Virus record (IMG/VR): IMGVR_UViG_3300044515_000029 | Location: 1-50,523 of that record | Source: a virus | Lineage: Duplodnaviria; Caudoviricetes | Strand: one strand, 5' to 3' | Length of the DNA: 50,523 nt | Shown here: piece after piece, positions 17,338-43,303 of the stretch | How positions within the stretch are numbered: the stretch's first letter is position 1 | Layout of the letters: each line of letters opens with the position of its first letter | Notes under the pieces: model-generated | Seen by the model: the letters and a program-made list of their open reading frames with translations, nothing else | Told to the model about the DNA's origin: nothing | Databases searched by the model: none | Position numbers and translations under genes: made by a program

Positions 17338-17935
17338 AAGAAGACGCCCGGTACGATTACGTCGAAGTGCAGTCTGACCCGCGACCTGTTGTCGCGCGCA
17401 TGTACTCACGTCCTGCCGGGCGTTTTTCTCCACGTCGGCACGGAACGATCACGCTGCCGACCGGCAGGCCGAGGATTCTCGATTGCGCTGCGCTACCGAT
17501 GCAGTCCTACCTGCAAGAGCGTTTCTCGCACGTCGGCAGCCGCAGCCACGCTGCCCGGCTGCTGCAAGCTGAGAATAAACGCCGTTATGATGCGGCCGCT
17601 GCTAGGGGAAACCTGCCGCGGTCTCGAAGTTCCGGCGAATGGCATCCGATCACCGCCGCTGAAATTGCGGCAGGCCTGTCAACGCTACGGGACGATCACC
17701 CGAGAAACGGCCGAACGCCGCCGGCAATTGAATCCGACTTGTTGCCGATGAGGCGCAGACGCCCCAAAATTCAACACCACCGCGCGAAAGTAGGTAAGGC
17801 GTAAAGCTAAGCCTTCCCCTTCGGGGCAGAGCGGTATCAATCGCGGCGCCGGACGAACTACCGGCAGAAAAAGAACCGGCCGTAAGGTCCGGCAGCACAG
17901 CCGCAACTCATACCCGCCATAGAGCGGGTTTTTTT
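17338..17935 (+). ncRNA. Candidate ~600-nt structured RNA or late-operon leader
   Basis: About 13 consecutive stems with G-U pairs; UUCG, GAAA and GUAA loops; repeated CGA loops; ends in a terminator. Overlapping ORF 17331..17804 is unconvincing. Confidence 0.5.
17912..17935 (+). terminator. Intrinsic terminator
   Basis: ACCCGC-CATAGA-GCGGGT-TTTTTT. Confidence 0.85.
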
Positions 17936-17971
17936 ATTCCTTAATTTCAATCAACCCGCTTGGAGCAGTCC

Positions 17972-18499
17972 ATGTTCTCGAATTTCCGTAAGTCACTGAT
18001 GAGCGTGTTCGCCGCGGCCGCGGTGTTCACGATTCTGAGCCTCTCGCCGCCCCCGGCAGAAGCCGGCGCAATGTCGAATTTCCTGACGAACAAGGTTATC
18101 GACTTCATCATGCGCGGCCAGGCGTACACGCCGCCGACGACCGTGTTCGTCGCGCTCGCGACTGGCGCGGGAAGCTCTGCCGCTTGCGGCACCGAAGTGA
18201 CCGGCGGCTCTTATGCGCGCGTTGCGGTCACGAGCTCGCTCACCAACTGGGCGGGCACTCAAGGCGCGACTACGACCGCAGTCTCAAGCGGTTCCAGCGG
18301 GCAGACGTCCAATAACGCGACGATTACATTCCCATCGCCTACGGCGAACTGGGGAACCGTCATCGAGTTTTGTGTGCTGGATGCCAGCTCGGGCGGCAAT
18401 TTGCTCTGGCGCGCATCGCTGACCACGTCGAAGACTGTAAATAATGGCGATGCCGCCCCGTCCTTTGCGATCAGCGCGCTGACTTGGACTCTCAACTAG
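17972..18499 (+). CDS. Small beta-rich fibre subunit with predicted signal peptide
   Basis: GGAG SD; MFSNFRK-hydrophobic-AEA/G; mature part TVFVAL.T..GTEV.GGSYAR..V...ITFP.PTANWGTV is a recognisable phage fibre-subunit pattern. Confidence 0.7.
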   Translation: MFSNFRKSLMSVFAAAAVFTILSLSPPPAEAGAMSNFLTNKVIDFIMRGQAYTPPTTVFVALATGAGSSAACGTEVTGGSYARVAVTSSLTNWAGTQGATTTAVSSGSSGQTSNNATITFPSPTANWGTVIEFCVLDASSGGNLLWRASLTTSKTVNNGDAAPSFAISALTWTLN

Positions 18500-18518
18500 T
18501 ACATGCCGGAGAATCATA

Positions 18519-20096
18519 GTGAGCCCTCCGTCGAGACTCGAAATCTCGATTCCGACCGCATCTTTCGACGGGGTTTTTCACGGCAGATACCCTCATGGAG
18601 ATGCGCCAGCAGGCCCTGTTCTACAGGGCGCTGCGGCTGACGCTACGTCGGCCAGCGGAGTGCTAACCACTAGCGGCGGCGGCGCTCCAATACCAACGCT
18701 TTTTATCTCGACCACGGGAAGCGACTCGAACCCAGGAACGCTGGCGCAGCCTTGGGCGATCACATCGCTGCTGTCTAACAGCGCGAATCAAGCATCGATG
18801 GTCGGCCAGGTCATTGGCATGGTAGCGGGCACCTACGCGACCAGCGGCATGCAGAGCACGACATCACCGGGTTCCTTTGATACCCCGGTTCTGACTTTGC
18901 CGCAGGGCTCTGCTGGCAATATCACGACATTGGTCTCTTGCAATTCGAGCGGTGTTTACACGCAGCGCGTGGCGATCCTCGATAACTCATCGAGCACGTC
19001 TGGCAACCCGCTCATCGGCCAAGATCCAAGTCACGCAGGATTTTGGGCGCTCGACGGACTGACCATTAAGGGGAATCCGACCAATGCGGCGGCTGTCTTC
19101 ATGGTGACTGGCCGCTACGCAGCGAGTACTACGGGAGGCACTTCCTTCGCCGCATCCAACATCACGATTCAGAACTGTGAGATTTTCAGTTTCACGACGA
19201 CCAGCAACGGAGGATCGAATTCCGGCGGCGTTATCATGCAGGGAACTACCGGCACGAAGTTCCTGAACAACTATGTTCACGACATCGTAGCCACCGGCAG
19301 CGCGACCAACATAGAGCACTGTCATGGTTACGAGGAATTCGGCTGCATAAATTCCGTCATTCACTTCAACACCTTCGCCAATTGCCAGGGCGCAGCAGTC
19401 GACATTAAGACCGGATGCTCTGGGCAGGATATTGCGAACAACTATTTCTATCTGTGTGGCACGACAGATGGCGGTAACGGCTCCGGCGCAATCACGGGAT
19501 GCGATGGAGCGGAGGGAAACCCGAATACCCCAGGAACCTCCTACTCAATCCATCACAACATCTTCGATAGCTGCAACTCGGAGATCTCGACCGATGTAAA
19601 CAACGTCAGAGAGCAAAGCGGAAGCACGTTTAATAACACGATCTATAACTCTCGGGCTGGATCAATCAACCCGATCAATTTTCGAGTCTTGAACGGCGCG
19701 TCATGGCAGTTGTTCAACACCATCCTAGTGACGACCGCTAATAGCAGCGGCGGCGGAAATGCTGGCTCAGGCGGCGTAGCGCTCACCACTGGCGGATGGT
19801 CGAATGTGAAAAATAACTGCTATTTCCTGCACTCAAGCAGTTCGATGTGGGGACAAAGCGGAACAAATTTCAGTTCTCTATCCGCCTGGCAGGCCGCCAC
19901 CGGATCGCCAGATGCCAACTCGATTGCGGCAAATCCGGTGTTCTCTTCTGCCATTACTCCTGGCAATGGCACGACGCAGTTTCAACTTGGGAGCGGCTCG
20001 CCATGCTTGGGGACGGGCGTAGGTGGCGTGAACATGGGGGCGTGGGATGGAACCGTTACGCAGATCGGCTGCAACTTTGAAACTGCGGTGAGCTAA
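18519..20096 (+). CDS. Right-handed beta-helix (pectate lyase-like) spike or depolymerase
   Basis: FIST.GSDSNPGT.AQPW, repeated NN/NT stacks, C-terminal FQL.SGSPCLG.G...MGAW. Confidence 0.75.
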   Translation: MSPPSRLEISIPTASFDGVFHGRYPHGDAPAGPVLQGAAADATSASGVLTTSGGGAPIPTLFISTTGSDSNPGTLAQPWAITSLLSNSANQASMVGQVIGMVAGTYATSGMQSTTSPGSFDTPVLTLPQGSAGNITTLVSCNSSGVYTQRVAILDNSSSTSGNPLIGQDPSHAGFWALDGLTIKGNPTNAAAVFMVTGRYAASTTGGTSFAASNITIQNCEIFSFTTTSNGGSNSGGVIMQGTTGTKFLNNYVHDIVATGSATNIEHCHGYEEFGCINSVIHFNTFANCQGAAVDIKTGCSGQDIANNYFYLCGTTDGGNGSGAITGCDGAEGNPNTPGTSYSIHHNIFDSCNSEISTDVNNVREQSGSTFNNTIYNSRAGSINPINFRVLNGASWQLFNTILVTTANSSGGGNAGSGGVALTTGGWSNVKNNCYFLHSSSSMWGQSGTNFSSLSAWQAATGSPDANSIAANPVFSSAITPGNGTTQFQLGSGSPCLGTGVGGVNMGAWDGTVTQIGCNFETAVS

Positions 20097-21319
20097 TGCT
20101 TAAAAGAATTGTAGCGATCGCGTTTATGGCACTCGTGCCGGCGTTGTCATGGGCGAATTACGCCTTTGTGAGCCAAGCGCAGAATGCATCAAACGGCAAT
20201 ACGGTCACTGTGTCGCCGGCGGCTGGACATTTCCTAATTGTTGTGTCTCAGACCAGCGCCGGCGGTGGCACGCCTACCGCCTCGATATCGGACAATCTAG
20301 GAGATACCTGGACTGTTGGCAAAGCGACGTCTCAGGACGGAACTATAGCCAATAACTTTTTCTCAATATTCTACTTACCGGTCGCGCCCGCCGGCATAAC
20401 AACTATCACCCTTACCTACGCTGGCGGAACGCCTGGTGCCGCGAATATCGCCTTTGTCGAATATAGCGGTCTTTCCTCCACTGGATTCCAGGGCGTCTCA
20501 ACCTTCAATCAGCAGCAAAATCCTGGAACCGCAACCAATGCGATTACGACTAACAACATCAATGTCGCCACGCAACCTGGGGCATTGATTGGATGGTTCA
20601 ATGACGGGGCTGGCAGCGGTGGTTGGACTGCCGGAACGTCGCCGCTTACGTTTACCATGCGCGTCAACGGCAGCTTCAACATGCTGGAGGACGCGCGCGT
20701 TACGGCGACCGGCAACGCTTTGGCGAATGCGACCAGCACTCATGGTACGACCCAGACGTATATAACCTACGCGATATTCATTGCTGAGCCATCATCAGGC
20801 GGTGGTGCGGCGCTGGCATCTGCCGCAACCGATGCGGTTACCGCCGTGGGTGCGCTAACGACTGTATCATCGGCCTTCGTTCCGCTCCTGCTCGACAACG
20901 CCTCGCGCTCTGACAATCTTTTGCTTGGCACCGCGCCGGGCGACGGAACGGGAGACAGCGCTCGCATTGGCGGAACGAAGCTCAAGCAATGGGCGGCCGA
21001 TGCGAACGCCATGTTCTCGCAGCTCTACCCGAACCGCAGCCTGCAGACGCCGACGACTGGTTTCTCTATTGCCGCCTCGATTGGCGTCACTCAACTCGTT
21101 CTCAATCCGGCGGGCACGCTGGCAACGGGTACGGTCACGCTGCCGACTCTGCCCGGCGATAATCAGCCGTTCACGCTCATGACGTCTCAGACGGTCACCA
21201 CGTTGACCGTCAACACGGCGGACACAAGCACCATCAACGGCGCGCCGACCACGATCAGCGCTAATACGAGCGTCAAATTTCGGTACATAACCTCGCTGAA
21301 TAGGTGGTTCCGCGAATAG
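20096..21319 (+). CDS. Fibre-associated protein with signal peptide and DGTGD motif
   Basis: MLKRIVAIAFMALVPALSWA/NY; GTAPGDGTGDSAR...MFSQLY resembles the T4 gp9/gp10 N-terminal motif. Confidence 0.7.
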   Translation: MLKRIVAIAFMALVPALSWANYAFVSQAQNASNGNTVTVSPAAGHFLIVVSQTSAGGGTPTASISDNLGDTWTVGKATSQDGTIANNFFSIFYLPVAPAGITTITLTYAGGTPGAANIAFVEYSGLSSTGFQGVSTFNQQQNPGTATNAITTNNINVATQPGALIGWFNDGAGSGGWTAGTSPLTFTMRVNGSFNMLEDARVTATGNALANATSTHGTTQTYITYAIFIAEPSSGGGAALASAATDAVTAVGALTTVSSAFVPLLLDNASRSDNLLLGTAPGDGTGDSARIGGTKLKQWAADANAMFSQLYPNRSLQTPTTGFSIAASIGVTQLVLNPAGTLATGTVTLPTLPGDNQPFTLMTSQTVTTLTVNTADTSTINGAPTTISANTSVKFRYITSLNRWFRE

Positions 21320-21333
21320 CAGGAGCCTAAAGC

Positions 21334-22914
21334 ATGGCTTTATGGACGTTCGACTCTTCGGCGGTCACGTTTGATTCGACTTCTGCGACATTCGACGGAT
21401 CACAGGGCGGCGGGGGAGGGGCGGCGCTTGCCGGCGCATCAACCGATGCGGTCACGGCGGCAGGCGGGCTAATCAATTTCGCGAGCGTCACGCTCGTGGC
21501 GCCGCTCTACACCGGGGTAGGGGGCATATTCGACCCGAACCTCGTATGGCCGTTCTCGACGCCTGTCGTCGGGAGCGTGGTCAAGTACGATCCGGCAGCT
21601 ATCACCGTGCTGCCAGACGGCCAAATAAATGCGACCGCGAACAACGTCGCGGCTGAGATTCAGTATTTCGACGGCGTCAATCTCAATGAGATAGACGTTT
21701 TCATCACGCCGACGATGGTCGGCTACGCCTTTGACGGCACGATCGCCTCGGGCACTTTCGTAGGCGCTGCGGCCCTCGCTGCTGCTGCTGCGAATCTATC
21801 GAGCGCTGCCGGCGTACTGACGACCGGAATACCGCTACAGGCGGCAGCCTCAAACCTGACGTCGGCGGTCGGCGCGCTCAACACCGCGATCCAATTGGCG
21901 TCCGCTGCCTCGGATTCATCGAGCGCGAGTGCGCTGCTCGGTGCTGTAGGCGCGAACCTGGCGGGGGCTGCAACCGACACGAGCAGCGGGAACGCCTCGC
22001 TGACGACGCTGATCGCGGTTGCTGGTGCGGCTGCTGATGTCGCGAGCGCTGCGGCGGCTCTGTCGACCGCGATTCAACTGGCAGCCCAGGCCACTGACTC
22101 GACCACCGCGTCAGGCCCGATTCGCACGAACATCCTGTTTATCGGCGCGGCGACTGACTCTATCAGCGGCGCGGGCCTCTTGGGCTCGATACAGGTACTT
22201 CAAGCCGCGGCGAACGATGTAACGACTGCGTTCGGCAGCCTGATTACTCAGATTGCACTCGCGGCGGCGGCGAGCTCGACCAGCATCGCGGCCGGTAGCC
22301 TGACATCGCAGATCAAGCTATCCGGATCCGCGACCGATTCAGTCACCGCAAGCGGCGCCCTGGGCGTCCTCGCGCTCAACTTAAGGCCGTCGCATTTGAT
22401 AGTCACATCGTTCTACAGCAACCAGCTTCTCGGCCAGGCGGGACCGCTGCCGTATGGCGAGTTTTTCTCGAGAGTGGATGATGTCGAGATTTACGCGATC
22501 GACTGGACCGGCTGGCTCACTAATTTTTGGGAGCGCGGCGCGATGGTTGCGCCCGGCTCGGTGATTCGACCGACTGCGCCGAACGGCTTCCAGTTCGTCA
22601 CGACCCTGGGCGGGCAGTCCGGCAATGCAGAGCCGGTATGGCCGAACGCAATCGGTCAGATGGCTACTGACGGCAGTGTCGTCTGGACTTGCGAGGCGAT
22701 CGACCTCAACTCGCTTTTCGCGAACGTGCAAAGCGCCGAATGGGTAGTTCAGAGCGGCATCACCGTGAAGGGACAGGAACAGTCGGGGAATCTCACGCTC
22801 GCGGAGCTCGACGCCACGGGCGCAACGGCAGGCCAGAACTACGCGGTCAACGTCGAAACGACGATGAGCGACGGCGAAACCAAGGTAGGCCAGATCGTCC
22901 TCAAGGTTCGATAA
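21334..22914 (+). CDS. Fibre scaffold/adaptor with 12 copies of a 20-aa Ala-rich repeat
   Basis: TFDS repeats at N-terminus; LxGAATDxxxAxGxLT repeats; C-terminal YAIDW.GWL and EPVWP...TDGSVVWT. Confidence 0.7.
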   Translation: MALWTFDSSAVTFDSTSATFDGSQGGGGGAALAGASTDAVTAAGGLINFASVTLVAPLYTGVGGIFDPNLVWPFSTPVVGSVVKYDPAAITVLPDGQINATANNVAAEIQYFDGVNLNEIDVFITPTMVGYAFDGTIASGTFVGAAALAAAAANLSSAAGVLTTGIPLQAAASNLTSAVGALNTAIQLASAASDSSSASALLGAVGANLAGAATDTSSGNASLTTLIAVAGAAADVASAAAALSTAIQLAAQATDSTTASGPIRTNILFIGAATDSISGAGLLGSIQVLQAAANDVTTAFGSLITQIALAAAASSTSIAAGSLTSQIKLSGSATDSVTASGALGVLALNLRPSHLIVTSFYSNQLLGQAGPLPYGEFFSRVDDVEIYAIDWTGWLTNFWERGAMVAPGSVIRPTAPNGFQFVTTLGGQSGNAEPVWPNAIGQMATDGSVVWTCEAIDLNSLFANVQSAEWVVQSGITVKGQEQSGNLTLAELDATGATAGQNYAVNVETTMSDGETKVGQIVLKVR

Positions 22915-23502
22915 ATGACCGAATCCTACAAGACCGCGAGAGAGAAGATTGACGCAGCGCTGAGCCGTGCTCCGGTTCGCAAAGTCGTCATCCTTAAGCG
23001 CGGCTCTGACGGGTTATTCATTCAGCCGACGACCACGGGAGCCGAGTACGAGTTTGAGGAAGCGCACAGGCGCATGGCCTTCGCTGAGGGCTACAAGTAC
23101 GCGGACGAGACTACCGGCAACACCCGCACGTTCGACCCGAAAGGGAATTACATCTGCGGCGAGTGCAACAAGGCCGATGACAAGCCATACGCCCTCTGCC
23201 TGTTCGTCTGCCAGGACGGCAAGCCACTCTCCGCGATTGATATCGACCGCAAGGCCGGAAGCTGCGGGTACTGGGAGGACACATGCGCGGGAGACCCCGA
23301 GCTCAAGAATCCTCAGAAGCCCGAGACCGTGGCCGTGTACGGAGTAGCGAAGAACGGCGAGGGATTTGGCTGTCATCGTTGTCCCTTCGCTTCTGATGCG
23401 ATTGCGCCGGATAGCCGAGGCAGAAAGCTCTACTGCGGGAAGGGATCGTTTCGCGTTGCTTGGAATGCCTGCTGTGAGTTGAACGGAGCGCCGACGGTAT
23501 GA
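22915..23502 (+). CDS. Cys-rich protein with two HiPIP-like motifs
   Basis: CGEC...C...GSCGYW and CHRC...C...ACC. Confidence 0.6.
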   Translation: MTESYKTAREKIDAALSRAPVRKVVILKRGSDGLFIQPTTTGAEYEFEEAHRRMAFAEGYKYADETTGNTRTFDPKGNYICGECNKADDKPYALCLFVCQDGKPLSAIDIDRKAGSCGYWEDTCAGDPELKNPQKPETVAVYGVAKNGEGFGCHRCPFASDAIAPDSRGRKLYCGKGSFRVAWNACCELNGAPTV

Positions 23503-23696
23503 ACCTCATCCCCAAGGCGACCTTTGTCGTGGACAAGAACGGAAAGCCTAAGCGGGTATTGATCAACGGTATTGAGGTATGCGCAGGGGCCTTACTCACT
23601 CACGCAGGATTCGAGTGCGGCCCCGATGGGGTCTTTGATCTTCGCTTGACGTTTGCCGTGACGGGAATCGAGACGGTTACGGAGGCCGCATCATGA
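23499..23696 (+). CDS. Hypothetical protein
   Basis: ATGA overlap, GGAG SD. Confidence 0.55.
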   Translation: MNLIPKATFVVDKNGKPKRVLINGIEVCAGALLTHAGFECGPDGVFDLRLTFAVTGIETVTEAAS

Positions 23697-23862
23697 CCTG
23701 GGGCCTGTTCTTCGTTTTGGTCTGCGCGCTGTTCTCTGCGCGGCTCGGCCCTGTTTTCTCTCGTGATTTACCTTTCCATGCTCAATTGGATCGGACACTT
23801 TTAGCGGCGCCGACGCGCTGAATTTTCTCAAGTTTTTGTAAAACAACCCCATAGGTGGCCCG

Positions 23863-24387
23863 ATGGCTATCAAATGCGGGGCCAAGACTCGTGCTGGCGG
23901 CAGATGCCGAAAAGCCGGGATGCCTAAAAATGGGCGCTGTCGTTTTCACGGCGGATTGAGTACAGGCCCAGGAAAAGGCAATCAGAACGCTGCGACGCAT
24001 GGAATCTATGCGAAGCATCTGACCGAGGACGAACGCGAGGTTTACGCGTCGCTCAAATTCGGCAACGTCGAGCACGAGTTGAGCCTGCAGCGCATCCGCC
24101 TTGCTCGCGCTCTCGCGGCTGAGACCGCGGCGAACGGCAAGCCCGAGCTTGATGAAGTCACGACGCACGACCAGATCGGCGAGGAAGGCTCGCGCGAGGA
24201 CCGCAAGGAAAAGGTCCGCGATTACGTCGGCATCATTGACCGCATAACCGCGCGCATTGAGTCGCTTGAGAAAACTCGCGCGCTGCTAATTGAGCTTGGC
24301 GCCGATCCGAACAAGGACGCGCCGAGCGCCGATGCGCTGACGCCTGGCAAGCCCGATGAAGCGACGCCAGCAGCACCGATCCGCTGA
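23863..24387 (+). CDS. terS: Terminase small subunit (HGGxSTG domain)
   Basis: CGAKTRAGGRC...GRCRFHGGLSTG..GNQNA.THG.Y; upstream of terL. Confidence 0.8.
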   Translation: MAIKCGAKTRAGGRCRKAGMPKNGRCRFHGGLSTGPGKGNQNAATHGIYAKHLTEDEREVYASLKFGNVEHELSLQRIRLARALAAETAANGKPELDEVTTHDQIGEEGSREDRKEKVRDYVGIIDRITARIESLEKTRALLIELGADPNKDAPSADALTPGKPDEATPAAPIR

Positions 24388-25717
24388 GGTAATCAACCTT
24401 ACAGCGAAGCAAGCCAACGTCTACGCGTGGGGCTGGCAGGCTGTAGCGAGATTCCGGGATGCGGTCTGCGGTCGTCGTTTCGGCAAGACGTACCTGGGCG
24501 CTGCGGAGATGCGACGAGCTGCTGAGCTTGCCGCACGGTGGAATGTCCACCCTGACGACGAAATATGGTACTGCGCGCCGACGTTCAAACAGGCGAAGCG
24601 GGTATTTTGGCGGCGCCTCAAGCGCGCCATACCGCGCGAGTGGATCGACGGCAAGCCGAACGAAACCGAGTGCTGCATTACGCTGCGCAGCGGTCACGTT
24701 ATCCGCGTCGTCGGCCTGGACTCGTACGACAACCTGCGCGGCTCGGGCCTGTTCTTCGTCCTGATCGATGAATGGGCGGATTGCCCCTATGTGGCCTGGG
24801 AGGAAGTGCTCCGGCCGATGCTCGCGACGTGCAAGTGGTTCGTAGACGGGGTTCTGCACTTCGGCGGCCATGCTCTGCGCATTGGAACCCCGAAGGGCTT
24901 CAATCACTGTTACGACACGTACAACAAGGGTCAGTCCGGCGGCGAGCCTGACCATAAGTCATGGTTTTACTCGACCCTGGACGGCGGCAACGTGCCGCTG
25001 GCAGAGATCGAGGCCGCGCGGCGAAATCTCGACCCTCGAACGTTCCGGCAAGAGTACCTAGCGAGCTTCGAGAATTACTCGGGCCGCGTCTATTACGCCT
25101 TCGACCGCCGGGAATCGGTGCGGTCATGCCCGTATAACGCGTTGCTACCGCTGCACGTGGGCATGGACTTCAACGTCAACCCAATGTCAGCGACCATCTG
25201 GCAAGAACAGCCTGGCGGCGATCTCTGGCAGATTGGCGAAGTAGTCATTCCGACCAGCGATACGGGCGAGATGGCGCGAGAGATTGCCGCGCGGTACGGG
25301 AAGCAGATCCCAGGCACGAAGCCGGACGTTCGGCACGTCACGATCTATCCCGACCCTGCCGGCGCGCAGCGAAAGACGAGCGCGCAGGGTAAGACCGATT
25401 TCAGCATCCTTCGGGAGCACGGGTTTACCGTCTACGCCATGAACGCGCACCCGCTGGTGCGTGACAGGGTCAACCTGACGAACGGTAAGTTCTTGAGCGC
25501 CGACGGAAAGCGCCATGCGTTCGTTGATCCTTCCTGCCGCGAATCGATCAAGTGCTACGAGCAGTTGACCTACAAGGAAGGCACCAGCGATTGGGAAAGG
25601 TCGCCTGACAAGTCTCTCGGGCTCGACCATCTGCCGGATGCGACCGGGTATTACATCTACACGCGGTTTGCGTACAAGCCTGCGCACGGCGCGCAGATTC
25701 ACCACATGGGACGGTAA
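24356..25717 (+). CDS. terL: Terminase large subunit
   Basis: Walker A GRRFGKT, Walker B LIDE, IGTPKG.N, nuclease GMDFNVNP, DH..DA.GY. Confidence 0.95.
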   Translation: MKRRQQHRSAEVINLTAKQANVYAWGWQAVARFRDAVCGRRFGKTYLGAAEMRRAAELAARWNVHPDDEIWYCAPTFKQAKRVFWRRLKRAIPREWIDGKPNETECCITLRSGHVIRVVGLDSYDNLRGSGLFFVLIDEWADCPYVAWEEVLRPMLATCKWFVDGVLHFGGHALRIGTPKGFNHCYDTYNKGQSGGEPDHKSWFYSTLDGGNVPLAEIEAARRNLDPRTFRQEYLASFENYSGRVYYAFDRRESVRSCPYNALLPLHVGMDFNVNPMSATIWQEQPGGDLWQIGEVVIPTSDTGEMAREIAARYGKQIPGTKPDVRHVTIYPDPAGAQRKTSAQGKTDFSILREHGFTVYAMNAHPLVRDRVNLTNGKFLSADGKRHAFVDPSCRESIKCYEQLTYKEGTSDWERSPDKSLGLDHLPDATGYYIYTRFAYKPAHGAQIHHMGR

Positions 25718-25720
25718 TAA

Positions 25721-25912
25721 ATGCACGATCGAAACGGAACCCCGCTCAAAGTTGGCGACGTCGTCACTGTCGAGTACGTCATCACGCACGTGAGCCCAGG
25801 CCCAGACTATTGCAACGTCAGCGCGCAATCGGTGGAAAACCGCAAGCCGGACGGCGCGAAAGAACACTTTTCGGGCAACTCTGCCGTGACCGTATTGCAG
25901 CGGGCAATCTAA
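25721..25912 (+). CDS. Small SH3/KOW-like protein
   Basis: DRNGTPLKVGDVVTV. Confidence 0.5.
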   Translation: MHDRNGTPLKVGDVVTVEYVITHVSPGPDYCNVSAQSVENRKPDGAKEHFSGNSAVTVLQRAI

Positions 25913-25921
25913 GGCCGATAA

Positions 25922-27403
25922 ATGCCTGATTTTCGCACGCTCAAAGACGGGTACCAGAAAGACCCGGACTTTCCGCAGCGCACGCACCACATTCTCGCGC
26001 TGGCCCGCGTCATCGACGGCAAGCTCTATAGCGAGCTCAAGAACGCATTCAGCGAGGAAAAGAACGAGGCGGGCGAATACCTGCCGCTGGCAACTCGCAG
26101 GCCATCGGCGCGCACGCGGTTCTGTCAGACGGTCGTCAATGACTCGGTGTCGCTGCTGTTCTCGGAGGGTCACTTCCCGGAAGTGGACTGCAAGGACGAG
26201 GGCACGCGCAAGGGCCTCGCGACCATCATCAAGGAATCATCCCTAAACGGCGTGATGATCGAGGCCGCAACGCTCGGATCAGTCGGCTCGATCTGCATTT
26301 TGCTGAAAGTGCTGAAAAGCCGCGTTTTCTTCGACGTGATGCGGACCCCGTACCTCACGCCGGAGTGGGACAAGGACGCGCCCGACACGCTCAAAAAGGT
26401 CACCGAGCGCTACAAGCTCAAAGGCGCGGACCTCAAGGCCGGCGGCTACACGATCGCCGATGACGACCTTGCGTCCGATTTCTGGTTCCAGCGCATCTGG
26501 GACGATAAGGCCGAGAATTGGTATCTGCCGCAGTCGATGGAGGATGCGAAGGCAAAAAAGCCGATGCTTATCGACAGCGCGAAAACGGTCGCGCACAAGC
26601 TCGGGTTTTGCCCGATGGTGTGGGTCAAGAACCTACCATGCGGTGACAACGATATTGACGGCGCCGCGACGTTCCCGCACGAGGCGATTGATACGCAGAT
26701 CGAGGCCGACTACCTGCTGTCCCAGGGCGGCCGCGGCCTAAAATACCAGTCTGACCCGACGCTGCATATCAAAGAGCCCGCGTTCAGCGAAGGCGGTGCA
26801 GTCGTCAAGGGCGCGGCAAACGCGATCATCACGAGCGCCGAGGGCGACGCGAAGCTGCTGGAAATCAACGGCGATGCGGCCAGCGCCGTCATGGAATGGG
26901 TCAAGGCCTTACGCGAGATCACGCTCGAAGGCATGGGCGGAAATCGCTCGAATGCTGACAAGCTCAGCGCGGCACAGTCAGGCCGGGCAATGGAACTGAT
27001 GAATCAGTCCTTGATCTGGCTCGCAGACAAGCTGCGCATCAGCTACGGCGAGGGAGCGCTTCTCGAATTGCTGTGCATGATCGTGCGCGCATCCGAAAAG
27101 TTCCCGCTCAAGGACAAGCGCGGCCGCAGCATCAAGGCATTGAGCCAGGACAAGGACATCTCCTTGCGCTGGCCCGCCTGGTACGCGCCGACCTATGCCG
27201 ACAAGTCGACGCAGGCGACCACGCTCGACGTATTGCGCGGTGGTGGGCTGCTTTCGCAGGAAACCGCAGTCAAGTCGCTGGCGGATTCCTACGACATCGA
27301 GGACGTGCCGGCAGAGCTCGCGAAGATCAAGACAGACGACCCGCCGCCGAACAGCGTCGCTGCGAAGCCTGACAAGTCGCCGCTCAGTGCGGCCAATGAT
27401 TAA
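25922..27403 (+). CDS. Portal protein
   Basis: 493 aa after terL; HKLGFCPMVW..N, SG.AM, LSQETAV SPP1-like features. Confidence 0.85.
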   Translation: MPDFRTLKDGYQKDPDFPQRTHHILALARVIDGKLYSELKNAFSEEKNEAGEYLPLATRRPSARTRFCQTVVNDSVSLLFSEGHFPEVDCKDEGTRKGLATIIKESSLNGVMIEAATLGSVGSICILLKVLKSRVFFDVMRTPYLTPEWDKDAPDTLKKVTERYKLKGADLKAGGYTIADDDLASDFWFQRIWDDKAENWYLPQSMEDAKAKKPMLIDSAKTVAHKLGFCPMVWVKNLPCGDNDIDGAATFPHEAIDTQIEADYLLSQGGRGLKYQSDPTLHIKEPAFSEGGAVVKGAANAIITSAEGDAKLLEINGDAASAVMEWVKALREITLEGMGGNRSNADKLSAAQSGRAMELMNQSLIWLADKLRISYGEGALLELLCMIVRASEKFPLKDKRGRSIKALSQDKDISLRWPAWYAPTYADKSTQATTLDVLRGGGLLSQETAVKSLADSYDIEDVPAELAKIKTDDPPPNSVAAKPDKSPLSAAND

Positions 27404-27473
27404 CGGCGAGGCCGACGCCTCGACGTGACGACCGCTTGCCCGATGGCGAGCATTTCAACAAGGAGAGGGCCAG

Positions 27474-27761
27474 ATGCCCGAACACAAGCTGAGAAAAGTA
27501 GCGCTAGACGAAATCACGCTGAACAACGCAGCGGATTTGATCGCCGAGGCGCTGAAAGCCAAGGGCTGCATTGTCCTGGTGCTGAACGACGACCGCACCA
27601 TCGGCATGACGTCGAGCGGCATCAACCACTACAAAGCAAACGAATTGCTGTCAGTGGGAATTCACATCAACTTGAGCCAGCACGATGAGGCTGTGGCGAA
27701 AGGCGAGGCTGGCGAAGCCGCGCAGCGCACTCAACTCTCGATTGTCGGGGGTGACCGATGA
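27474..27761 (+). CDS. Hypothetical protein
   Basis: AAGGAGAG SD; ATGA overlap with scaffold gene. Confidence 0.65.
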   Translation: MPEHKLRKVALDEITLNNAADLIAEALKAKGCIVLVLNDDRTIGMTSSGINHYKANELLSVGIHINLSQHDEAVAKGEAGEAAQRTQLSIVGGDR

Positions 27762-28309
27762 GCCTGCTACTCAATCTGATGCGCCGCTGCATGGAAGGCG
27801 AGGGCGAGGGTGGTGGTGGTGGCGGCTCGGCAAAGAATCCGCCGCAGCCGGAAGTTTTTTCCCGCGAGTACGTGCACGAGCTGCGCGAGGAAAACAAGTC
27901 ATGGCGCCAGAAACACCAAGAGAGCGAGACCGCCAAGGCCGATGCGCTCAAGCAAGTGGAAGCCTCAACCCAGGTCGCGACCGACAAAATCAAGGAAGCG
28001 AACGCCGCCGCCGATCAGCGCGTGATTCGCGCAGAACTCAAGGCCGCAGCGCTCAAGGCCGGCATGGTCGACCTCGACGGGTTGAAACTGGCCGATCTCT
28101 CGAAAGTGAAGCTCAACGATCAGGGCGAAGTCGAGGGCGCTGACAAGCTCATGGAAGATTTGAAAAAGGCGAAACCGTATCTATTCGGCGCCGAGTCGAC
28201 CAGCAACAACGGCAAACCGCCGAAGCCTGGAGACCAGCAACCGAAGCTCGCAACCGCGATGAGCGATGATGAGTACCGCGCAGCGCGATCCGCTGCAGTC
28301 AGACGTTGA
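27758..28309 (+). CDS. Capsid scaffolding protein
   Basis: FSREYV.ELREEN..WR coiled coil, LKKAKPYLF, MSDDEY. Confidence 0.8.
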   Translation: MSLLLNLMRRCMEGEGEGGGGGGSAKNPPQPEVFSREYVHELREENKSWRQKHQESETAKADALKQVEASTQVATDKIKEANAAADQRVIRAELKAAALKAGMVDLDGLKLADLSKVKLNDQGEVEGADKLMEDLKKAKPYLFGAESTSNNGKPPKPGDQQPKLATAMSDDEYRAARSAAVRR

Positions 28310-28431
28310 TTTTGTCGCCGCCGATGCGGCGATATTGATTTTTCATTGACCACAGGCGCTTTAAGGCGCCGTGCCCATCGGGAGTCGACCTCCAGGGGTG
28401 TTCGTAAAACACACCACGCAGGAGATTCCCC

Positions 28432-29757
28432 TTGGGTATTCAATCGTTTCCGGCTGCTCTGCAGCCAATCATTCAGCAGAACTTCTTGGAGCGCGAGTTC
28501 CACGACGCGATCCAGTCGATCATCGGGTATCGAAAGATCGCGCGGCGGGAACCGTTCGCCGCGAAGATCGGCGAAACCCTCACCAAGACCCGCAATGGCT
28601 TGAAGGTTCCGACCACGACCCCGCTCGTTCCGAGCACCAACACGAACCTGGACAACGGTCTGACGCCGTCGACCTGGACCGTGGAGCAGTACACGCTGTC
28701 GATCAACCAGTACGGAGATTCGATCGACCTGAACACCGTCACGAACCGCGTCGGCATCGTCGAGCAGTTCCTCACCAATGCGAAGGTCAACGGCATCCAG
28801 GCCGCGCAGTCCTTGGACCGGTTGGCGCGCAATGCGATCTTCAACCCGTACATGGGCGGAAATACTCGAGTCCGCACGACCCTGGGCGCGCCCGCCGCGA
28901 CTATCGCGGTTGATGACGTGCGCGGGTTTCAGCAGGCGTTTTTGAACGGGCAATTGCTGCCAGTTTCCGGCGCCAACCCGATGCAGGTTCTTGTCGGCTC
29001 GACCGTGTATACCCTGAGTGCGGTTGCGGTGGACGGCGGCAACGTCAGCACCGCGCCCCTGGGTATCTCGGGCACGCTGACCTTCACCAGCAACGTGAGC
29101 ACGGCGGACGGAACCGTGCTGAATCAGGTTACCTCGTACTTGAGCGGCGCCGGCAGCGGGCCCTTCATCCTGCGACCGAGCGGACGCGCCACCACGGCGG
29201 CGATCACCGGCAGCGACCTGCTGACGATGGGCGCGGTTCTCGACGGTGTCGCGTACCTGCGTCGCAACGCGGTCCCGACGATCGACGGCATGTACAACAT
29301 GTACCTGGACCCCGTCTCGGGCCGTCAATTATTCGCGGACCCTGACTTTAAGATTCTGTTCCAGGGTCAGAGCGCCGCGAAAGAGTTCCGGCAGGGCCGA
29401 GTCATCGAACTGCTCGACGTTCGGTACATCCCGACGACTGAATCGTTCGTGCAGGTGTTGGGTGGAACTACCATCCGCCGGCCGATCCTGTGCGGTGCGG
29501 AGTCCCTGGTTGAGGGCGACTTCGAGGGCATGGGCAAGAGCGACACGCCGACCGATGCAGGGATCATCAACATGGTCGACGACATCGTTCACGTGACCCG
29601 CGAACCGATCGACCGCCTGCAGCAGATCATCGCCCAGTCCTGGTACTGGATCGGTGGATTTGTGGCGCCGACCGACCAGACGTTGAATCAAAACATCGTC
29701 CCGACCGCGAGCTTGAGCTACTACAAGCGCGCTCTGGTGTTTGAACACGCCGGCTAG
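28432..29757 (+). CDS. Major capsid protein
   Basis: 441 aa after scaffold; GGAG SD with TTG start; IGETLTKTR, QYG..I, QAAQSLDRLAR. Confidence 0.85.
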   Translation: MGIQSFPAALQPIIQQNFLEREFHDAIQSIIGYRKIARREPFAAKIGETLTKTRNGLKVPTTTPLVPSTNTNLDNGLTPSTWTVEQYTLSINQYGDSIDLNTVTNRVGIVEQFLTNAKVNGIQAAQSLDRLARNAIFNPYMGGNTRVRTTLGAPAATIAVDDVRGFQQAFLNGQLLPVSGANPMQVLVGSTVYTLSAVAVDGGNVSTAPLGISGTLTFTSNVSTADGTVLNQVTSYLSGAGSGPFILRPSGRATTAAITGSDLLTMGAVLDGVAYLRRNAVPTIDGMYNMYLDPVSGRQLFADPDFKILFQGQSAAKEFRQGRVIELLDVRYIPTTESFVQVLGGTTIRRPILCGAESLVEGDFEGMGKSDTPTDAGIINMVDDIVHVTREPIDRLQQIIAQSWYWIGGFVAPTDQTLNQNIVPTASLSYYKRALVFEHAG

Positions 29758-29775
29758 TCGATAGGGTAGGCAATA

Positions 29776-29797
29776 AGGCGGGCCTTCGGGCCCGCCT
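29776..29797 (+). terminator. UUCG hairpin after capsid gene
   Basis: AGGCGGGCC-TTCG-GGCCCGCCT; weak U-tail. Confidence 0.55.
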
Positions 29798-29817
29798 CTC
29801 TCACTGGAGTACAAGCG

Positions 29818-30063
29818 ATGCCACTAGGAACATCCCTCGTTGCAGATACCGGCGCGAGCGCGATCGGCAACGGCCAGCACGCGGAATTGAGCGCGGCGCA
29901 GATCAGCACAAAATACGGTGCTGGCAACGTCAAGACCTCATCCGTGGACTACACGTTCACCTTCAAGGGTCAGCACATCTATTTCCGCAAGGGCGTACCT
30001 GTCGTCATCACTGACGCCGCGATGCTCGCTGCTTTGACCGCTGCCGGCGCACCGGTCTCGTAA
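29818..30063 (+). CDS. Small head-associated protein
   Basis: GGAG SD; shares C-terminal motif with next two genes. Confidence 0.65.
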   Translation: MPLGTSLVADTGASAIGNGQHAELSAAQISTKYGAGNVKTSSVDYTFTFKGQHIYFRKGVPVVITDAAMLAALTAAGAPVS

Positions 30064-30257
30064 TGGCTAAGAAGTCACGCGTTGAGCCGGCCGTCTCGAC
30101 ACAGGCTGAAAATACGCCGCTGCCGCGCTTCGTCGTACTCGACGAAACCTACGGGTGGATGGAAAACGGCTGCACGATGATGTTCAAGGAAGGGCAGATC
30201 GTGCGCGACCCGAGCATCGTCAAGGTGCTGATCGATCGCGGCGCCCCATTGCTTTAA
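30063..30257 (+). CDS. Small head-associated protein
   Basis: YGW.ENG...F.EGQIV.DP..VK.LIDRGAP. Confidence 0.65.
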   Translation: MAKKSRVEPAVSTQAENTPLPRFVVLDETYGWMENGCTMMFKEGQIVRDPSIVKVLIDRGAPLL

Positions 30258-30275
30258 ATCACAAGGAATTTTCAC

Positions 30276-30578
30276 ATGGCAGACCCAAAACCAGAAACGG
30301 ACGAAGCTGCAGCAAAGCTCGCCGCCGACGCAGAGGCCGACGCGAAGCAAGTATCCGACAAGGCCGCCGCCGCCAAAAAGGCCGCCGCGGAATCCAAGTC
30401 GATGCTCGCCAAGATCAAGCACGTGGTCCTGACATCGGTGTATGGCTTCTACGACGAGGCGGGCAAGTACGTCGGCTGGGTCGAGGGTCATATCGTGACC
30501 GAGGCCGAGCACATCAAGCTGCTGATCGAACGCAAGGCGCCGGTCACCGTCGTGGAGCACGAGGAAGCGCCGAAGTGA
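30276..30578 (+). CDS. Small head-associated protein
   Basis: YGFYDEAG...W.EGHIV.E..HIKLLIERKAP. Confidence 0.7.
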   Translation: MADPKPETDEAAAKLAADAEADAKQVSDKAAAAKKAAAESKSMLAKIKHVVLTSVYGFYDEAGKYVGWVEGHIVTEAEHIKLLIERKAPVTVVEHEEAPK

Positions 30579-32943: not shown

Positions 32944-32967
32944 ACCGCCGCCTCAACCCCTCATCAG

Positions 32968-32989
32968 AACCCGCCTCGGCGGGTTTTTT
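32968..32989 (+). terminator. Intrinsic terminator
   Basis: AACCCGCC-TC-GGCGGGTT-TTTT. Confidence 0.75.
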
Positions 32990-34548: not shown

Positions 34549-34612
34549 CAACCAACCCCGCAACCCATCGTAGGCCGCCTTGTGCGGCCTTTTAATTTTC
34601 GGAGCCGCATAC

Positions 34613-43240: not shown

Positions 43241-43263
43241 TTCACTGATTTAGGCAAACAACG

Positions 43264-43286
43264 ACCCCGCTCAATGCGGGGTTTTT
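43264..43286 (+). terminator. Intrinsic terminator
   Basis: ACCCCGC-TCAAT-GCGGGGT-TTTT. Confidence 0.75.
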
Positions 43287-43303
43287 CATTTCTGGAGGCC
43301 CCT

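What the first reader, a model, noticed from the sequence alone, without database searches (positions are those of the whole stretch)
22905..28393. Recurring CGA(U/C)-loop hairpin on or beside start codons of packaging and head genes
Seen in sequence, eight hairpins whose loop contains CGAT or CGAC. GGTT-CGATAAAT-GACC (22905..22920) covers the ATG of the Cys protein. GGTGGCC-CGAT-GGCTATC (23854..23871) sequesters the SD and ATG of terS. AGCGC-CGAT-GCGCT (24325..24338) lies just before the terL start. AGGC-CGATAAAT-GCCT (25912..25927) covers the portal ATG, with the same 8-nt loop as at 22905. CGAGGC-CGAC-GCCTCG (27407..27422) and GCTTGCC-CGAT-GGCGAGC (27434..27451) follow the portal. TGTCGCCGC-CGAT-GCGGCGATA (28313..28334) and GGAG-TCGAC-CTCC (28381..28393) lie in the capsid leader. 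Variants are GGGC-CAGAT-GCCC over ATG 27474 and GAC-TGAT-GTC over ATG 30883, and CCGATG is the start context of terL, scaffold and tape measure. Stems differ while loops are kept, as expected for a protein-recognised RNA element. Inference: a phage translational control code that sets the stoichiometry of late proteins, by analogy with T4 RegA or CsrA. I do not recognise it as described.
Basis: partly seen in the sequence, partly recalled or inferred. Interest (0 to 1): 0.85.

Follow-up and report, generated by a model that had tools for sequence, protein, structure and literature searches.

The report
Conserved GA(U/C)-loop hairpins in phage head operon
About half of the reported hairpins belong to RNA hairpins kept across a wide group of related phages, with changing stems and a fixed G-A-U or G-A-C in the loop, placed at the starts of the packaging, scaffold and capsid genes, so they probably control how much of these proteins is made.

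Summary
All eight strings are in the window as written. Window statistics alone are weak: CGAT is the top tetraloop at stems of 6 bp or more (5 against 1.06 expected), but 156 of 400 shuffles give some loop as extreme. The case rests on 83 non-redundant related loci.

Four conserved elements emerged:
- A2: a GC-rich hairpin plus U-tract about 19 nt before the first gene after the portal. Chosen blind to the loop, 38 of 67 loops end in GAU, against 2 of 87 host terminators.
- S: a mini-hairpin over that gene's AUG. G is at -1 in 42 of 42, and the middle pair covaries with codon 2. It also occurs at terS.
- A1: an NGAC-loop hairpin 10 nt upstream of A2 in the closest relatives.
- A two-helix motif with an NNGAC loop in the capsid leader, with 63 model hits, all in capsid leaders and none in 800 kb of host DNA.

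Window copies: 27434, 27467, 23854, 27407, 28369-28402. Hairpin 28313 has partial support. Hairpins 22905, 24325 and 25912 look incidental.

Rfam has no match. No CsrA or RegA gene was found. The best reading is phage-specific cis-regulatory RNA whose loop is read by an unidentified factor. The mechanism is inferred, not shown.

The parts
23805..23820 (+). Hairpin cggcgc-CGAC-gcgctg with a T-rich tail, about 40 nt before terS.
   Evidence: terminator-like. Relatives often have a hairpin at about -60 from terS, but with varied loops (TTCG, GATT, TCGAT, GACC, TGAC).
23854..23871 (+). S-type start-codon hairpin over the terS AUG (23863). The core is GCC-CGAU-GGC at 23858-23867.
   Evidence: (-7.9 kcal/mol). 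S-type motifs sit at the terS start in 14 of 33 non-redundant loci with a terS homologue. Among terS starts aligned from residue 1, 9 of 16 have a stem of 4 bp or more.
27407..27422 (+). A1: hairpin cgaggc-CGAC-gcctcg, 4 nt after the portal stop and 11 nt before A2.
   Evidence: -9.1. The tandem A1, 10-nt spacer, A2 occurs in L003, L013, L025, L038, L040, L041, L042 and L049. A1 loops there are ACGAC, TTGAC, TCGAC, TGAC or CTGGT, on different stems.
27434..27451 (+). A2: hairpin gcttgcc-CGAU-ggcgagc, 22 nt before ATG 27474. Relatives have a U-tract after it; the window copy has a poor one.
   Evidence: (model R2 top hit, 29.4 bits). The terminator scan does not call it in the window.
27467..27479 (+). 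S: start-codon hairpin GGGC-CAGAU-GCCC over ATG 27474, the first gene after A2 (a 95-aa ORF of unknown function).
28313..28334 (+). B: 9-bp hairpin with a CGAU loop and a T-rich tail, 4 nt after the scaffold stop. It is terminator-like.
   Evidence: -14.4; top terminator-like site. In relatives, 9 of 28 hairpins at this site have loops ending in GAT (59 loci examined).
28369..28402 (+). Capsid-leader motif. Helix P0 is 28374-28376 with 28396-28398. An internal loop AUCG lies on the 5' side and a single A on the 3' side. Helix P1 is 28381-28384 with 28390-28393, and the loop is UCGAC (28385-28389). The motif lies about 51 nt before the capsid start at 28432.
   Evidence: (E 6.6e-7; the only significant copy in the window).
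29776..29797 (+). Hairpin aggcgggcc-UUCG-ggcccgcct, 19 nt after the capsid stop. It is a conserved neighbour but not a GA(U/C)-loop member.
   Evidence: In 58 relatives the loops are TTCG 16, ending in GAT 4, ending in GAC 1.
23863..24387 (+). terS gene
   Evidence: PHROGs terminase small subunit, E 1.8e-16
25922..27403 (+). Portal gene
   Evidence: PHROGs portal, E 1.3e-10. Used to fetch 117 related loci.
27758..28309 (+). Scaffold gene (Pfam PF06810, Phage_scaffold)
   Evidence: E 5.7e-14
28432..29757 (+). Major capsid gene (TTG start)
   Evidence: PHROGs major head protein, E 1.5e-34

Best explanation
The window is a complete temperate myovirus genome of the Rahariannevirus-like group.

Its packaging and head mRNA carries phage-specific cis-acting RNA hairpins. 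Their stems drift freely but their loops keep G-A-U or G-A-C at the 3' side.

The core unit precedes the first gene of the head-assembly block. Its order is A1, a 10-nt spacer, A2 (a GC-rich stem with an (N)NGAU loop), a U-tract, the Shine-Dalgarno sequence, and S. S is a 3-5 bp hairpin whose (N)NGAU loop ends in the AU of the start codon. A second S sits on the terS start. A two-helix motif with an NNGAC loop sits about 50 nt before the capsid start.

My reading has two parts. A2 acts as an intrinsic terminator or insulator. A2 and S together form a two-site translational operator flanking the ribosome-binding site, read at the GAU loops by a factor that has not been identified.

A phage head protein such as the scaffold, regulating its own synthesis, is the leading candidate for that factor. 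This would tune terS, scaffold and capsid output.

Shown here: the existence, conservation, covariation, position and phage specificity of the elements.
For: A2.
- The most stable hairpin between the portal stop and the next gene was picked blind to its loop. Of 72 loci, 67 had a hairpin, and 38 of those loops end in GAT.
- Seven further loci carry such a hairpin as the second-best one.
- Controls: 4 of 58 at the post-capsid site and 2 of 87 host terminator-like hairpins in 800 kb. Fisher tests give 1e-9 and 2e-15.
- On the + strand 39 of 118 terminator-like loops end in GAT, against 0 of 43 on the - strand.
- Stems turn over: 6 of 7 pairs show changes on both sides in each of two alignments.
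- A2 follows the downstream gene. From its 3' end to the ATG the median is 19 nt, and 16-27 nt in 41 of 42. From the portal stop to A2 the distance is 0-2044 nt.

S.
- G is at -1 in 42 of 42 starts, against 40.7% of 11,306 ATG trinucleotides.
- A stem of at least 3 bp is present in 42 of 42, and at least 4 bp in 24 of 42 against 7.5% background.
- The middle pair covaries with the first base of codon 2: AU 14, CG 5, GC 4, UA 1 and GC 11, UA 3, AU 2.
- S-type starts fall on scaffold (25), the small ORF (19), terS (14) and others (6).
- In host DNA they are 7 of 955 candidate starts, against 64 of 957 in the phage loci.

Capsid leader.
- The motif was found in 48 of 68.
- RNAalifold predicts the same two helices independently.
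- Helix P0, which was not used for picking, is 94% paired, with changes on both sides in 3 of 3 pairs.
- The covariance model gives 63 hits, all on the + strand and all in capsid leaders, and 0 hits in 800 kb of host DNA.

Precedent: the N-terminus of the P22 scaffold is 'implicated in translational autoregulation' (passage read).
Against: - No expression data exist and no reader has been identified.
- Within the window alone, the enrichment fails correction for testing all tetraloops.
- Rows in alignments A2, A3, A5 and A6 were picked as hairpins, and A5 and A6 were split by best register. Their paired fractions are therefore partly built in.
- A terminator placed before the most abundant head proteins is awkward unless late transcription reads through terminators.
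- The window's own A2 lacks a good U-tract.
- The loop motif is not used by other late hairpins in the same genomes. Capsid and portal starts mostly lack S.
- Phage P22, the only documented case of scaffold autoregulation, has a 13-nt portal-scaffold gap with no such hairpin.
- Relatives from Alphaproteobacteria keep the scaffold gene but lack A2.
Confidence: 0.45

Rival explanations
1. These are structural elements with no loop reader. A2, B and the post-capsid hairpin would be ordinary intrinsic terminators or decay barriers that insulate sub-operons. S would simply tune initiation through weak local structure. The GAU preference would be an intrinsic folding or kinetic property, or inheritance from a common ancestor.
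For: A conserved U-tract follows A2 (two T columns at 90% or more). The same hairpin, U-tract, Shine-Dalgarno cassette precedes the sheath gene and other tail genes with different loops. The generic model R2 also hits host terminators at up to 26 bits. P22, HK97 and lambda are annotated with a stem-loop after the capsid gene.
Against: The three loop letters of A2 carry no pairing or coding constraint, yet they persist while every stem pair changes. Host terminators do not share the loop. G at -1 of S is unpaired and invariant in 42 of 42. NGAU is not among the tetraloops I recall as having special stability; this was not tested here.
Confidence: 0.3
2. The loops pair with another RNA rather than with a protein. 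Candidates are a phage or host small RNA carrying the complementary triplet, or the single-stranded 3' tail of 16S rRNA just upstream of the anti-Shine-Dalgarno sequence.
For: UGAU is the commonest loop form at both A2 and S. The capsid-leader internal loop AUCG is complementary to the CGAU loop.
Against: L005 and L053 have C in place of U in the leader internal loop but keep GAU loops. There is thus no covariation between the two sites. The first loop base varies among A, C and U. No partner RNA was found.
Confidence: 0.1
3. These are DNA-level sites: inverted repeats bound by a dimeric protein such as terminase at pac or a late activator, or cruciforms.
For: One hairpin lies on the terS start, where pac sites of some phages lie (a pac site is annotated inside P22 gene 3).
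Against: The arms vary and the spacer is constant, which is the reverse of a protein-bound palindrome. G-U pairs make the hairpins strand-specific: CGAT 20 on the + strand against ATCG 16 on the - strand, and TGAT 24 against ATCA 13. All terminator-like copies are on the coding strand.
Confidence: 0.05
4. Chance and composition: CCGATG-type strings are common in 60% GC DNA, and short hairpins abound.
For: Window-only multiple-testing result (156 of 400). CCGATG occurs 39 times on the + strand and 36 on the - strand. Hairpins 22905, 24325 and 25912 are weak, coding or junction by-products.
Against: All the comparative results above. The loci are independent sequences at 42-74% portal identity.
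Confidence: 0.05

Closest known systems
GP20-a (RF02991) and GP20-b (RF03003) RNA motifs, and six further candidate RNAs upstream of GP20 genes (PMC10690425, passages read)
   Same: They are structured RNAs found directly upstream of phage genes of the GP20 family. I take this family to be Pfam PF06810, the family of the window's scaffold; that equivalence is from recall, not from a call. They are presumed to be cis-regulatory, with unknown mechanism.
   Different: No Rfam family reached E <= 5 over 22500-30300 other than three unrelated weak hits, and only a tRNA matched at gathering score. The published motifs are 107 and 72 bp. The hosts named in the paper are Veillonella, Lachnoclostridium, Lysinibacillus and Gemmiger, with wastewater as a further source, not Betaproteobacteria. 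Here the element is a chain of simple hairpins sharing one loop motif, and it often precedes a small ORF ahead of the scaffold gene.
CsrA/RsmA two-site translational operators
   Same: Two hairpin loops carry the same short motif, one upstream of the ribosome-binding site and one at it, a layout suited to a dimer bridging both sites (the CsrA architecture is recalled, not from a call).
   Different: The loop motif here is GAU, not GGA (the latter recalled). CsrA (PF02599) was found in 0 of 5 host genomes and not in the window, while the control search found it in E. coli, B. subtilis and T. maritima.
Translational autoregulation of the phage P22 scaffold
   Same: The gene order is the same (terS, terL, portal, scaffold, capsid). 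The regulated gene would be the scaffold. One passage on autoregulation was read.
   Different: P22 has only 13 nt between portal and scaffold, with no GAU hairpin at the start. Its RNA target is, to my recollection, undefined.
Coat-protein operator hairpins of RNA phages (MS2, PP7)
   Same: A small hairpin containing the start codon of the regulated gene, read through its loop by a capsid protein (recalled).
   Different: Those are single-stranded RNA phages with a different loop and a bulged stem. No homology was tested.
T4 RegA
   Same: A phage translational repressor acting at the start regions of several mRNAs (recalled).
   Different: No RegA gene (PF01818) is in the window. RegA sites are, as I recall, unstructured and AU-rich.
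Stem-loop after the major capsid gene in P22, HK97 and lambda
   Same: The window hairpin at 29776-29797 and its counterparts in 58 relatives occupy the same place.
   Different: This one carries UUCG, not GA(U/C), in most phages. It is a neighbour of the finding, not a part of it.

Membership tests
Any Rfam 15 family (including GP20-a RF02991 and GP20-b RF03003) | Covariance-model match at or near the gathering score | tested here: not met
   Whole window at gathering score: tRNA only. Region 22500-30300 at E <= 5: three unrelated weak hits.
CsrA/RsmA regulon | GGA in the hairpin loops (motif recalled) | tested here: not met
   Loops are (N)NGAU or NNGAC. GGAT does not appear among the listed top tetraloops.
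CsrA/RsmA regulon | A CsrA protein available in the host or the phage | tested here: not met
   PF02599 found in 0 of 5 host genomes and 0 in the window. Control genomes were positive.
T4 RegA-type control | A RegA (PF01818) gene in the phage | tested here: not met
   No match at E <= 1 in the complete virus record.
Intrinsic (Rho-independent) terminator | GC-rich stem followed by a U-tract on the transcribed strand | tested here: met
   For A2 in relatives, the consensus stem is followed by TTTTT, with two T columns at 90% or more. Hairpin 28313 is the top terminator-like site in the window.
Intrinsic (Rho-independent) terminator | The same features, in the window's own A2 copy | tested here: not met
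   The tail is ATTTCAAC, and the terminator scan does not call it.
Intrinsic (Rho-independent) terminator | Transcripts actually end there | not testable with these tools
   No RNA run was listed.
Protein-read RNA operator (in the sense of MS2, boxB or CsrA) | Loop sequence conserved while stems covary | tested here: met
Protein-read RNA operator (in the sense of MS2, boxB or CsrA) | A cognate binding protein, and an effect on expression | not testable with these tools
   No candidate could be tested. Complex prediction does not take RNA as a partner.

The most novel reading that the evidence does not exclude
A phage-encoded head protein binds GAU-loop hairpins as a dimer. The scaffold is the leading candidate, and the 95-aa protein encoded right after A2 is a second. 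It would bridge A2 and the start-codon hairpin S to close the ribosome-binding site, and would also bind the terS start and the GAC-loop capsid leader. The mRNA would then sense the pool of unassembled head protein and co-regulate packaging, scaffold and capsid synthesis. This would be an RNA regulon of head assembly in double-stranded DNA phages, widespread among phages of Betaproteobacteria.
Probability: 0.25. Interest if true: 0.75.

Novelty: new variant of a known kind. Interest (0 to 1): 0.6.

Why it matters
How tailed phages set the very unequal amounts of terminase, portal, scaffold and capsid protein made from one late transcript is largely unknown. Scaffold autoregulation in P22 has, to my recollection, no defined RNA target.

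This work gives three concrete and testable RNA elements. Each has a simple loop signature, dozens of natural stem variants that act as ready-made compensatory mutants, and a clear layout around a ribosome-binding site.

If a loop reader exists, it would be a new RNA-protein recognition pair and a handle on the control of head assembly. If none exists, the elements are still new covariance-supported RNA motifs for annotating phages and prophages of Betaproteobacteria.

Tried and rejected
- Window-only enrichment as proof: rejected after the multiple-testing control (156 of 400 shuffles).
- A genome-wide late 'code': rejected.
- Host terminator habit: rejected (2 of 87).
- Host start-site habit: rejected (7 of 955).
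- Model R2 of A2 as a specific detector: rejected, because it scores host terminators at up to 26 bits.
- Pairing between the A2 or S loop and the AUCG internal loop of the capsid leader: no covariation. L005 and L053 were read by eye.
- An upstream ORF starting at the AUG in the A2 loop: the spacing to the real start varies without a 3-nt period (distances), and in the window it gives only an out-of-frame ORF.
- A terS-start hairpin of the cacAUGg type as a general feature: only 5 of 31 loci. The shorter S core is commoner (14 of 33).
Only 2 of 64 S-type starts in relatives lie downstream of the capsid gene, so it is left open.
- CsrA and RegA: not found.
- P22 as a structural analogue: no hairpin there.
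- Sampling Burkholderiales-order genomes with model R1 gave 1 of 151. The tool scores few candidates per genome, so this is a weak negative.
- RNA evidence: no RNA holder was listed.
- Five literature searches found no description of these elements.
- Supplementary tables of PMC10690425 and PMC5737381 could not be opened. They may already list one or more of these elements as unnamed candidates. The GP20 motifs are not in the main text of PMC5737381.
- No structure prediction or complex prediction was run.

Full report
**What the window is.** The window is a complete virus record (CheckV completeness 100) of 50,523 bases at 59.7% GC. A tRNA-Arg and an integrase-sized ORF lie at its left end. 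The late genes run on the + strand: terS 23863-24387, terL 24356-25717, a 63-aa ORF, portal 25922-27403, a 95-aa ORF 27474-27761, scaffold 27758-28309 (Pfam PF06810) and major capsid 28432-29757. The nearest named phages are the Ralstonia myoviruses Raharianne, Albius and Hyacinthe, at about 72% nucleotide identity over part of the region.

**The literal observation.** As drawn, the hairpins range from -1.3 to -14.4 kcal/mol. The two with 4-bp stems and 8-nt loops (22905, 25912) are marginal.

**Window-only statistics.**
- On the + strand CGAT is the commonest tetraloop at stems of 6 bp or more (5 of 174) and of 7 bp or more (4 of 68). CGAC adds 4 at 6 bp or more. The - strand has 1 and 0.
- Dinucleotide shuffles expect 1.04 and 1.12, and 0 of 300 reach the sum of 9.
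- When every tetraloop is allowed to be the 'winner', 156 of 400 shuffles show something as extreme. The count alone proves nothing.
- Nine of the 11 CGAY hairpins with stems of 5 bp or more fall within 5.7 kb. The scan probability is 1.5e-5, with the loop type chosen after the fact.

**Related loci.** The portal protein retrieved 37 genome loci and 80 viral contigs at 42-74% identity. After 34 near-duplicates were dropped, 83 loci (760 kb) remained. On their + strand, hairpins with stems of 7 bp or more are led by these tetraloops: TTCG 33, TGAT 24, CGAT 20, CGAC 17, GCGA 16 and AGAT 13. Expectations from tetramer frequency are 4.9, 4.8, 6.6, 9.8, 8.2 and 3.2. The - strand shows no excess of CGAT or CGAC.

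Among terminator-like hairpins, 39 of 118 loops on the + strand end in GAT, against 0 of 43 on the - strand. In 400 kb from each of two host chromosomes the figures are 1 of 38 and 1 of 49.

**Element A2.**
- In each locus I took the most stable simple hairpin between the portal stop and the next recognisable gene, without looking at its loop. Of 72 loci, 67 had one. Of those, 38 loops end in GAT: TGAT 10, TCGAT 9, TTGAT 7, CGAT 5, AGAT 4, TAGAT 2 and CAGAT 1.
- Seven more loci have such a hairpin as the second-best one.
- The stems are unrelated from phage to phage. In the 4-nt-loop and 5-nt-loop alignments, 6 of 7 pairs show changes on both sides. These rows were chosen as hairpins, so the paired fraction is built in.
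- A U-tract follows in most relatives.
- A2 keeps a fixed distance to the downstream start: median 19 nt, and 16-27 nt in 41 of 42. Its distance from the portal stop runs from 0 to 2044 nt because other genes are inserted in 12 of 46 loci. The downstream gene is the scaffold in 26 and a homologue of the window's 95-aa ORF in 14.
- The window copy is 27434-27451. It has a weak U-tract and is not called by the terminator scan.

**Element A1.** In the closest relatives a second hairpin lies 10 nt upstream of A2, right after the portal stop. Its loops are ACGAC, TTGAC, TCGAC or TGAC, or CTGGT in three loci. The window copy is 27407-27422 (CGAC), 11 nt before A2.

**Element S.**
- The start codon of the gene after A2 is preceded by G in 42 of 42 cases, against 40.7% of 11,306 ATG trinucleotides.
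- It always sits in a hairpin of 3 bp or more whose 4-5-nt loop ends in the AU of AUG. In 24 of 42 the stem is 4 bp or more, against 7.5% background.
- The middle pair links position -4 or -5 to the first base of codon 2, and it covaries: AU 14, CG 5, GC 4, UA 1 and GC 11, UA 3, AU 2. Rows were split by best register, which favours the structure.
- A strict S pattern with a Shine-Dalgarno sequence and an ORF of 60 aa or more occurs 64 times on the + strand of the loci and 4 times on the - strand. The 64 fall on scaffold 25, the small ORF 19, terS 14 and others 6.
- Portal starts (0 of 26) and capsid starts (4 of 31) mostly lack it.
- In host DNA it marks 7 of 955 candidate starts, against 64 of 957 in the phage loci.

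**Capsid-leader motif.**
- Aligning the leaders revealed a conserved block. A pattern search found it in 48 of 68 (47 loci plus the window), 44-58 nt before the capsid start.
- It has two helices. P0 is 3 bp and P1 is 4 bp. An invariant A and C lie in a 4-nt internal loop, an invariant A lies opposite, and the loop is NNGAC or, less often, NNGGC.
- RNAalifold predicts exactly these helices.
- All 7 pairs show changes on both sides. P0 was not used for picking and is 94% paired.
- Model R1 finds one significant copy in the window, 28369-28402 at E 6.6e-7. It finds 63 copies in loci L001-L117, all on the + strand and all in capsid leaders, and none in 800 kb of host DNA. L066 has three tandem copies and L018 has two.

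**Other sites.**
- After the scaffold gene, 28 of 59 loci have a hairpin of -8 kcal/mol or better. Nine of those loops end in GAT and five are TTCG. The window copy, 28313-28334, is the best terminator-like site in the region.
- After the capsid gene a very stable hairpin is nearly universal, but its loop is mostly TTCG (16 of 58; ending in GAT 4; ending in GAC 1). In the window it is 29776-29797.
- Hairpins 22905, 24325 and 25912 have no counterpart in relatives, by my reading. In 22905 and 25912 the shared 9-mer is an Arg codon, a stop and the next ATG. Hairpin 24325 lies in Ala-Asp codons near the end of terS.

**What it is not.**
- Rfam 15 has no match.
- It is not a property of all late hairpins. 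In Raharianne only the portal-scaffold gap has NGAY loops, and other late hairpins carry TTCG or CAAGT. The window's tail-region hairpins carry other loops.
- CsrA is absent from five host genomes and from the window, and RegA is absent from the window.
- P22 has the same gene order but no such hairpin before its scaffold gene.

**Interpretation.** The arms vary and the loop is fixed. G-U pairs and the U-tracts make the elements strand-specific. These features point to RNA rather than to a protein-bound DNA palindrome.

The GAU of A2 is free of coding and pairing constraints, yet it copies the loop of S, where AU belongs to the start codon. Two like hairpins bracketing a ribosome-binding site is the layout of a two-site translational operator. 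I therefore favour a loop-reading factor that controls initiation at the first cistrons of the packaging and head blocks, with A2 also serving as a terminator or insulator.

The elements are phage-specific and travel with the portal, scaffold and capsid genes, so a head protein is the most economical candidate. P22 scaffold autoregulation is the precedent (passage read). This step is inference.

A reader-free structural role is the main rival. The published GP20-a and GP20-b motifs and six further candidates upstream of the same scaffold family show that structured RNA at this position is a known theme (passages read). I could not check whether unnamed candidates in those papers' supplements overlap these elements.

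**Verdict.** The 'translational control' idea is plausible and now testable, but unproven. The analogy to RegA or CsrA holds only at the level of layout.

Noticed in passing
window 23845-23853; loci listed: A conserved box AACCCCAT(G/A) lies about 10-25 nt before the terS start in the window and in many relatives, for example L006, L014, L024, L025, L041, L049, L054, L058, L060, L078, L079 and L081. It could be a late-promoter or activator element, or part of a packaging site.
   Followed up: no
window 17960-22914: Genes resembling fibre proteins of the Ralstonia podophage GP4 sit directly upstream of the packaging genes rather than in the tail block. The Pfam matches are Gp80 (E 1.6e-41) and a weak Gp77 match.
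   Followed up: partly
window 32966-32987, 34572-34590, 43263-43295, 17912-17929: A recurring cassette of GC hairpin, U-tract, a CAUUUCUGGAG-like Shine-Dalgarno region and a start codon precedes the sheath gene and other tail genes. The loops are not GA(U/C). The layout matches A2 in relatives.
   Followed up: partly
window 29776-29797; 58 relatives: A very stable UUCG hairpin lies after the capsid gene, usually without a U-tract. It occupies the same position as the stem-loop annotated in P22, HK97 and lambda.
   Followed up: yes
L066 4865-4991; L018 6905-6978: The capsid-leader motif is present in three tandem copies in L066 and two in L018.
   Followed up: no
window 25700-25930: The 63-aa ORF 25721-25912 between terL and portal is absent from most relatives, where terL abuts portal. 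The junction string (an Arg codon, a stop, then ATG) appears on both sides of it, which suggests an insertion that duplicated the junction.
   Followed up: partly
window 23619-23633: A further hairpin, ggcccc-GAT-ggggtc with a T-rich tail, lies inside the doubtful 65-aa ORF 23499-23696.
   Followed up: no
window 23863-23970: The N-terminus of terS is Cys-rich and basic and contains an HGG-x-STG string. The same N-terminus recurs in terS homologues of relatives.
   Followed up: no
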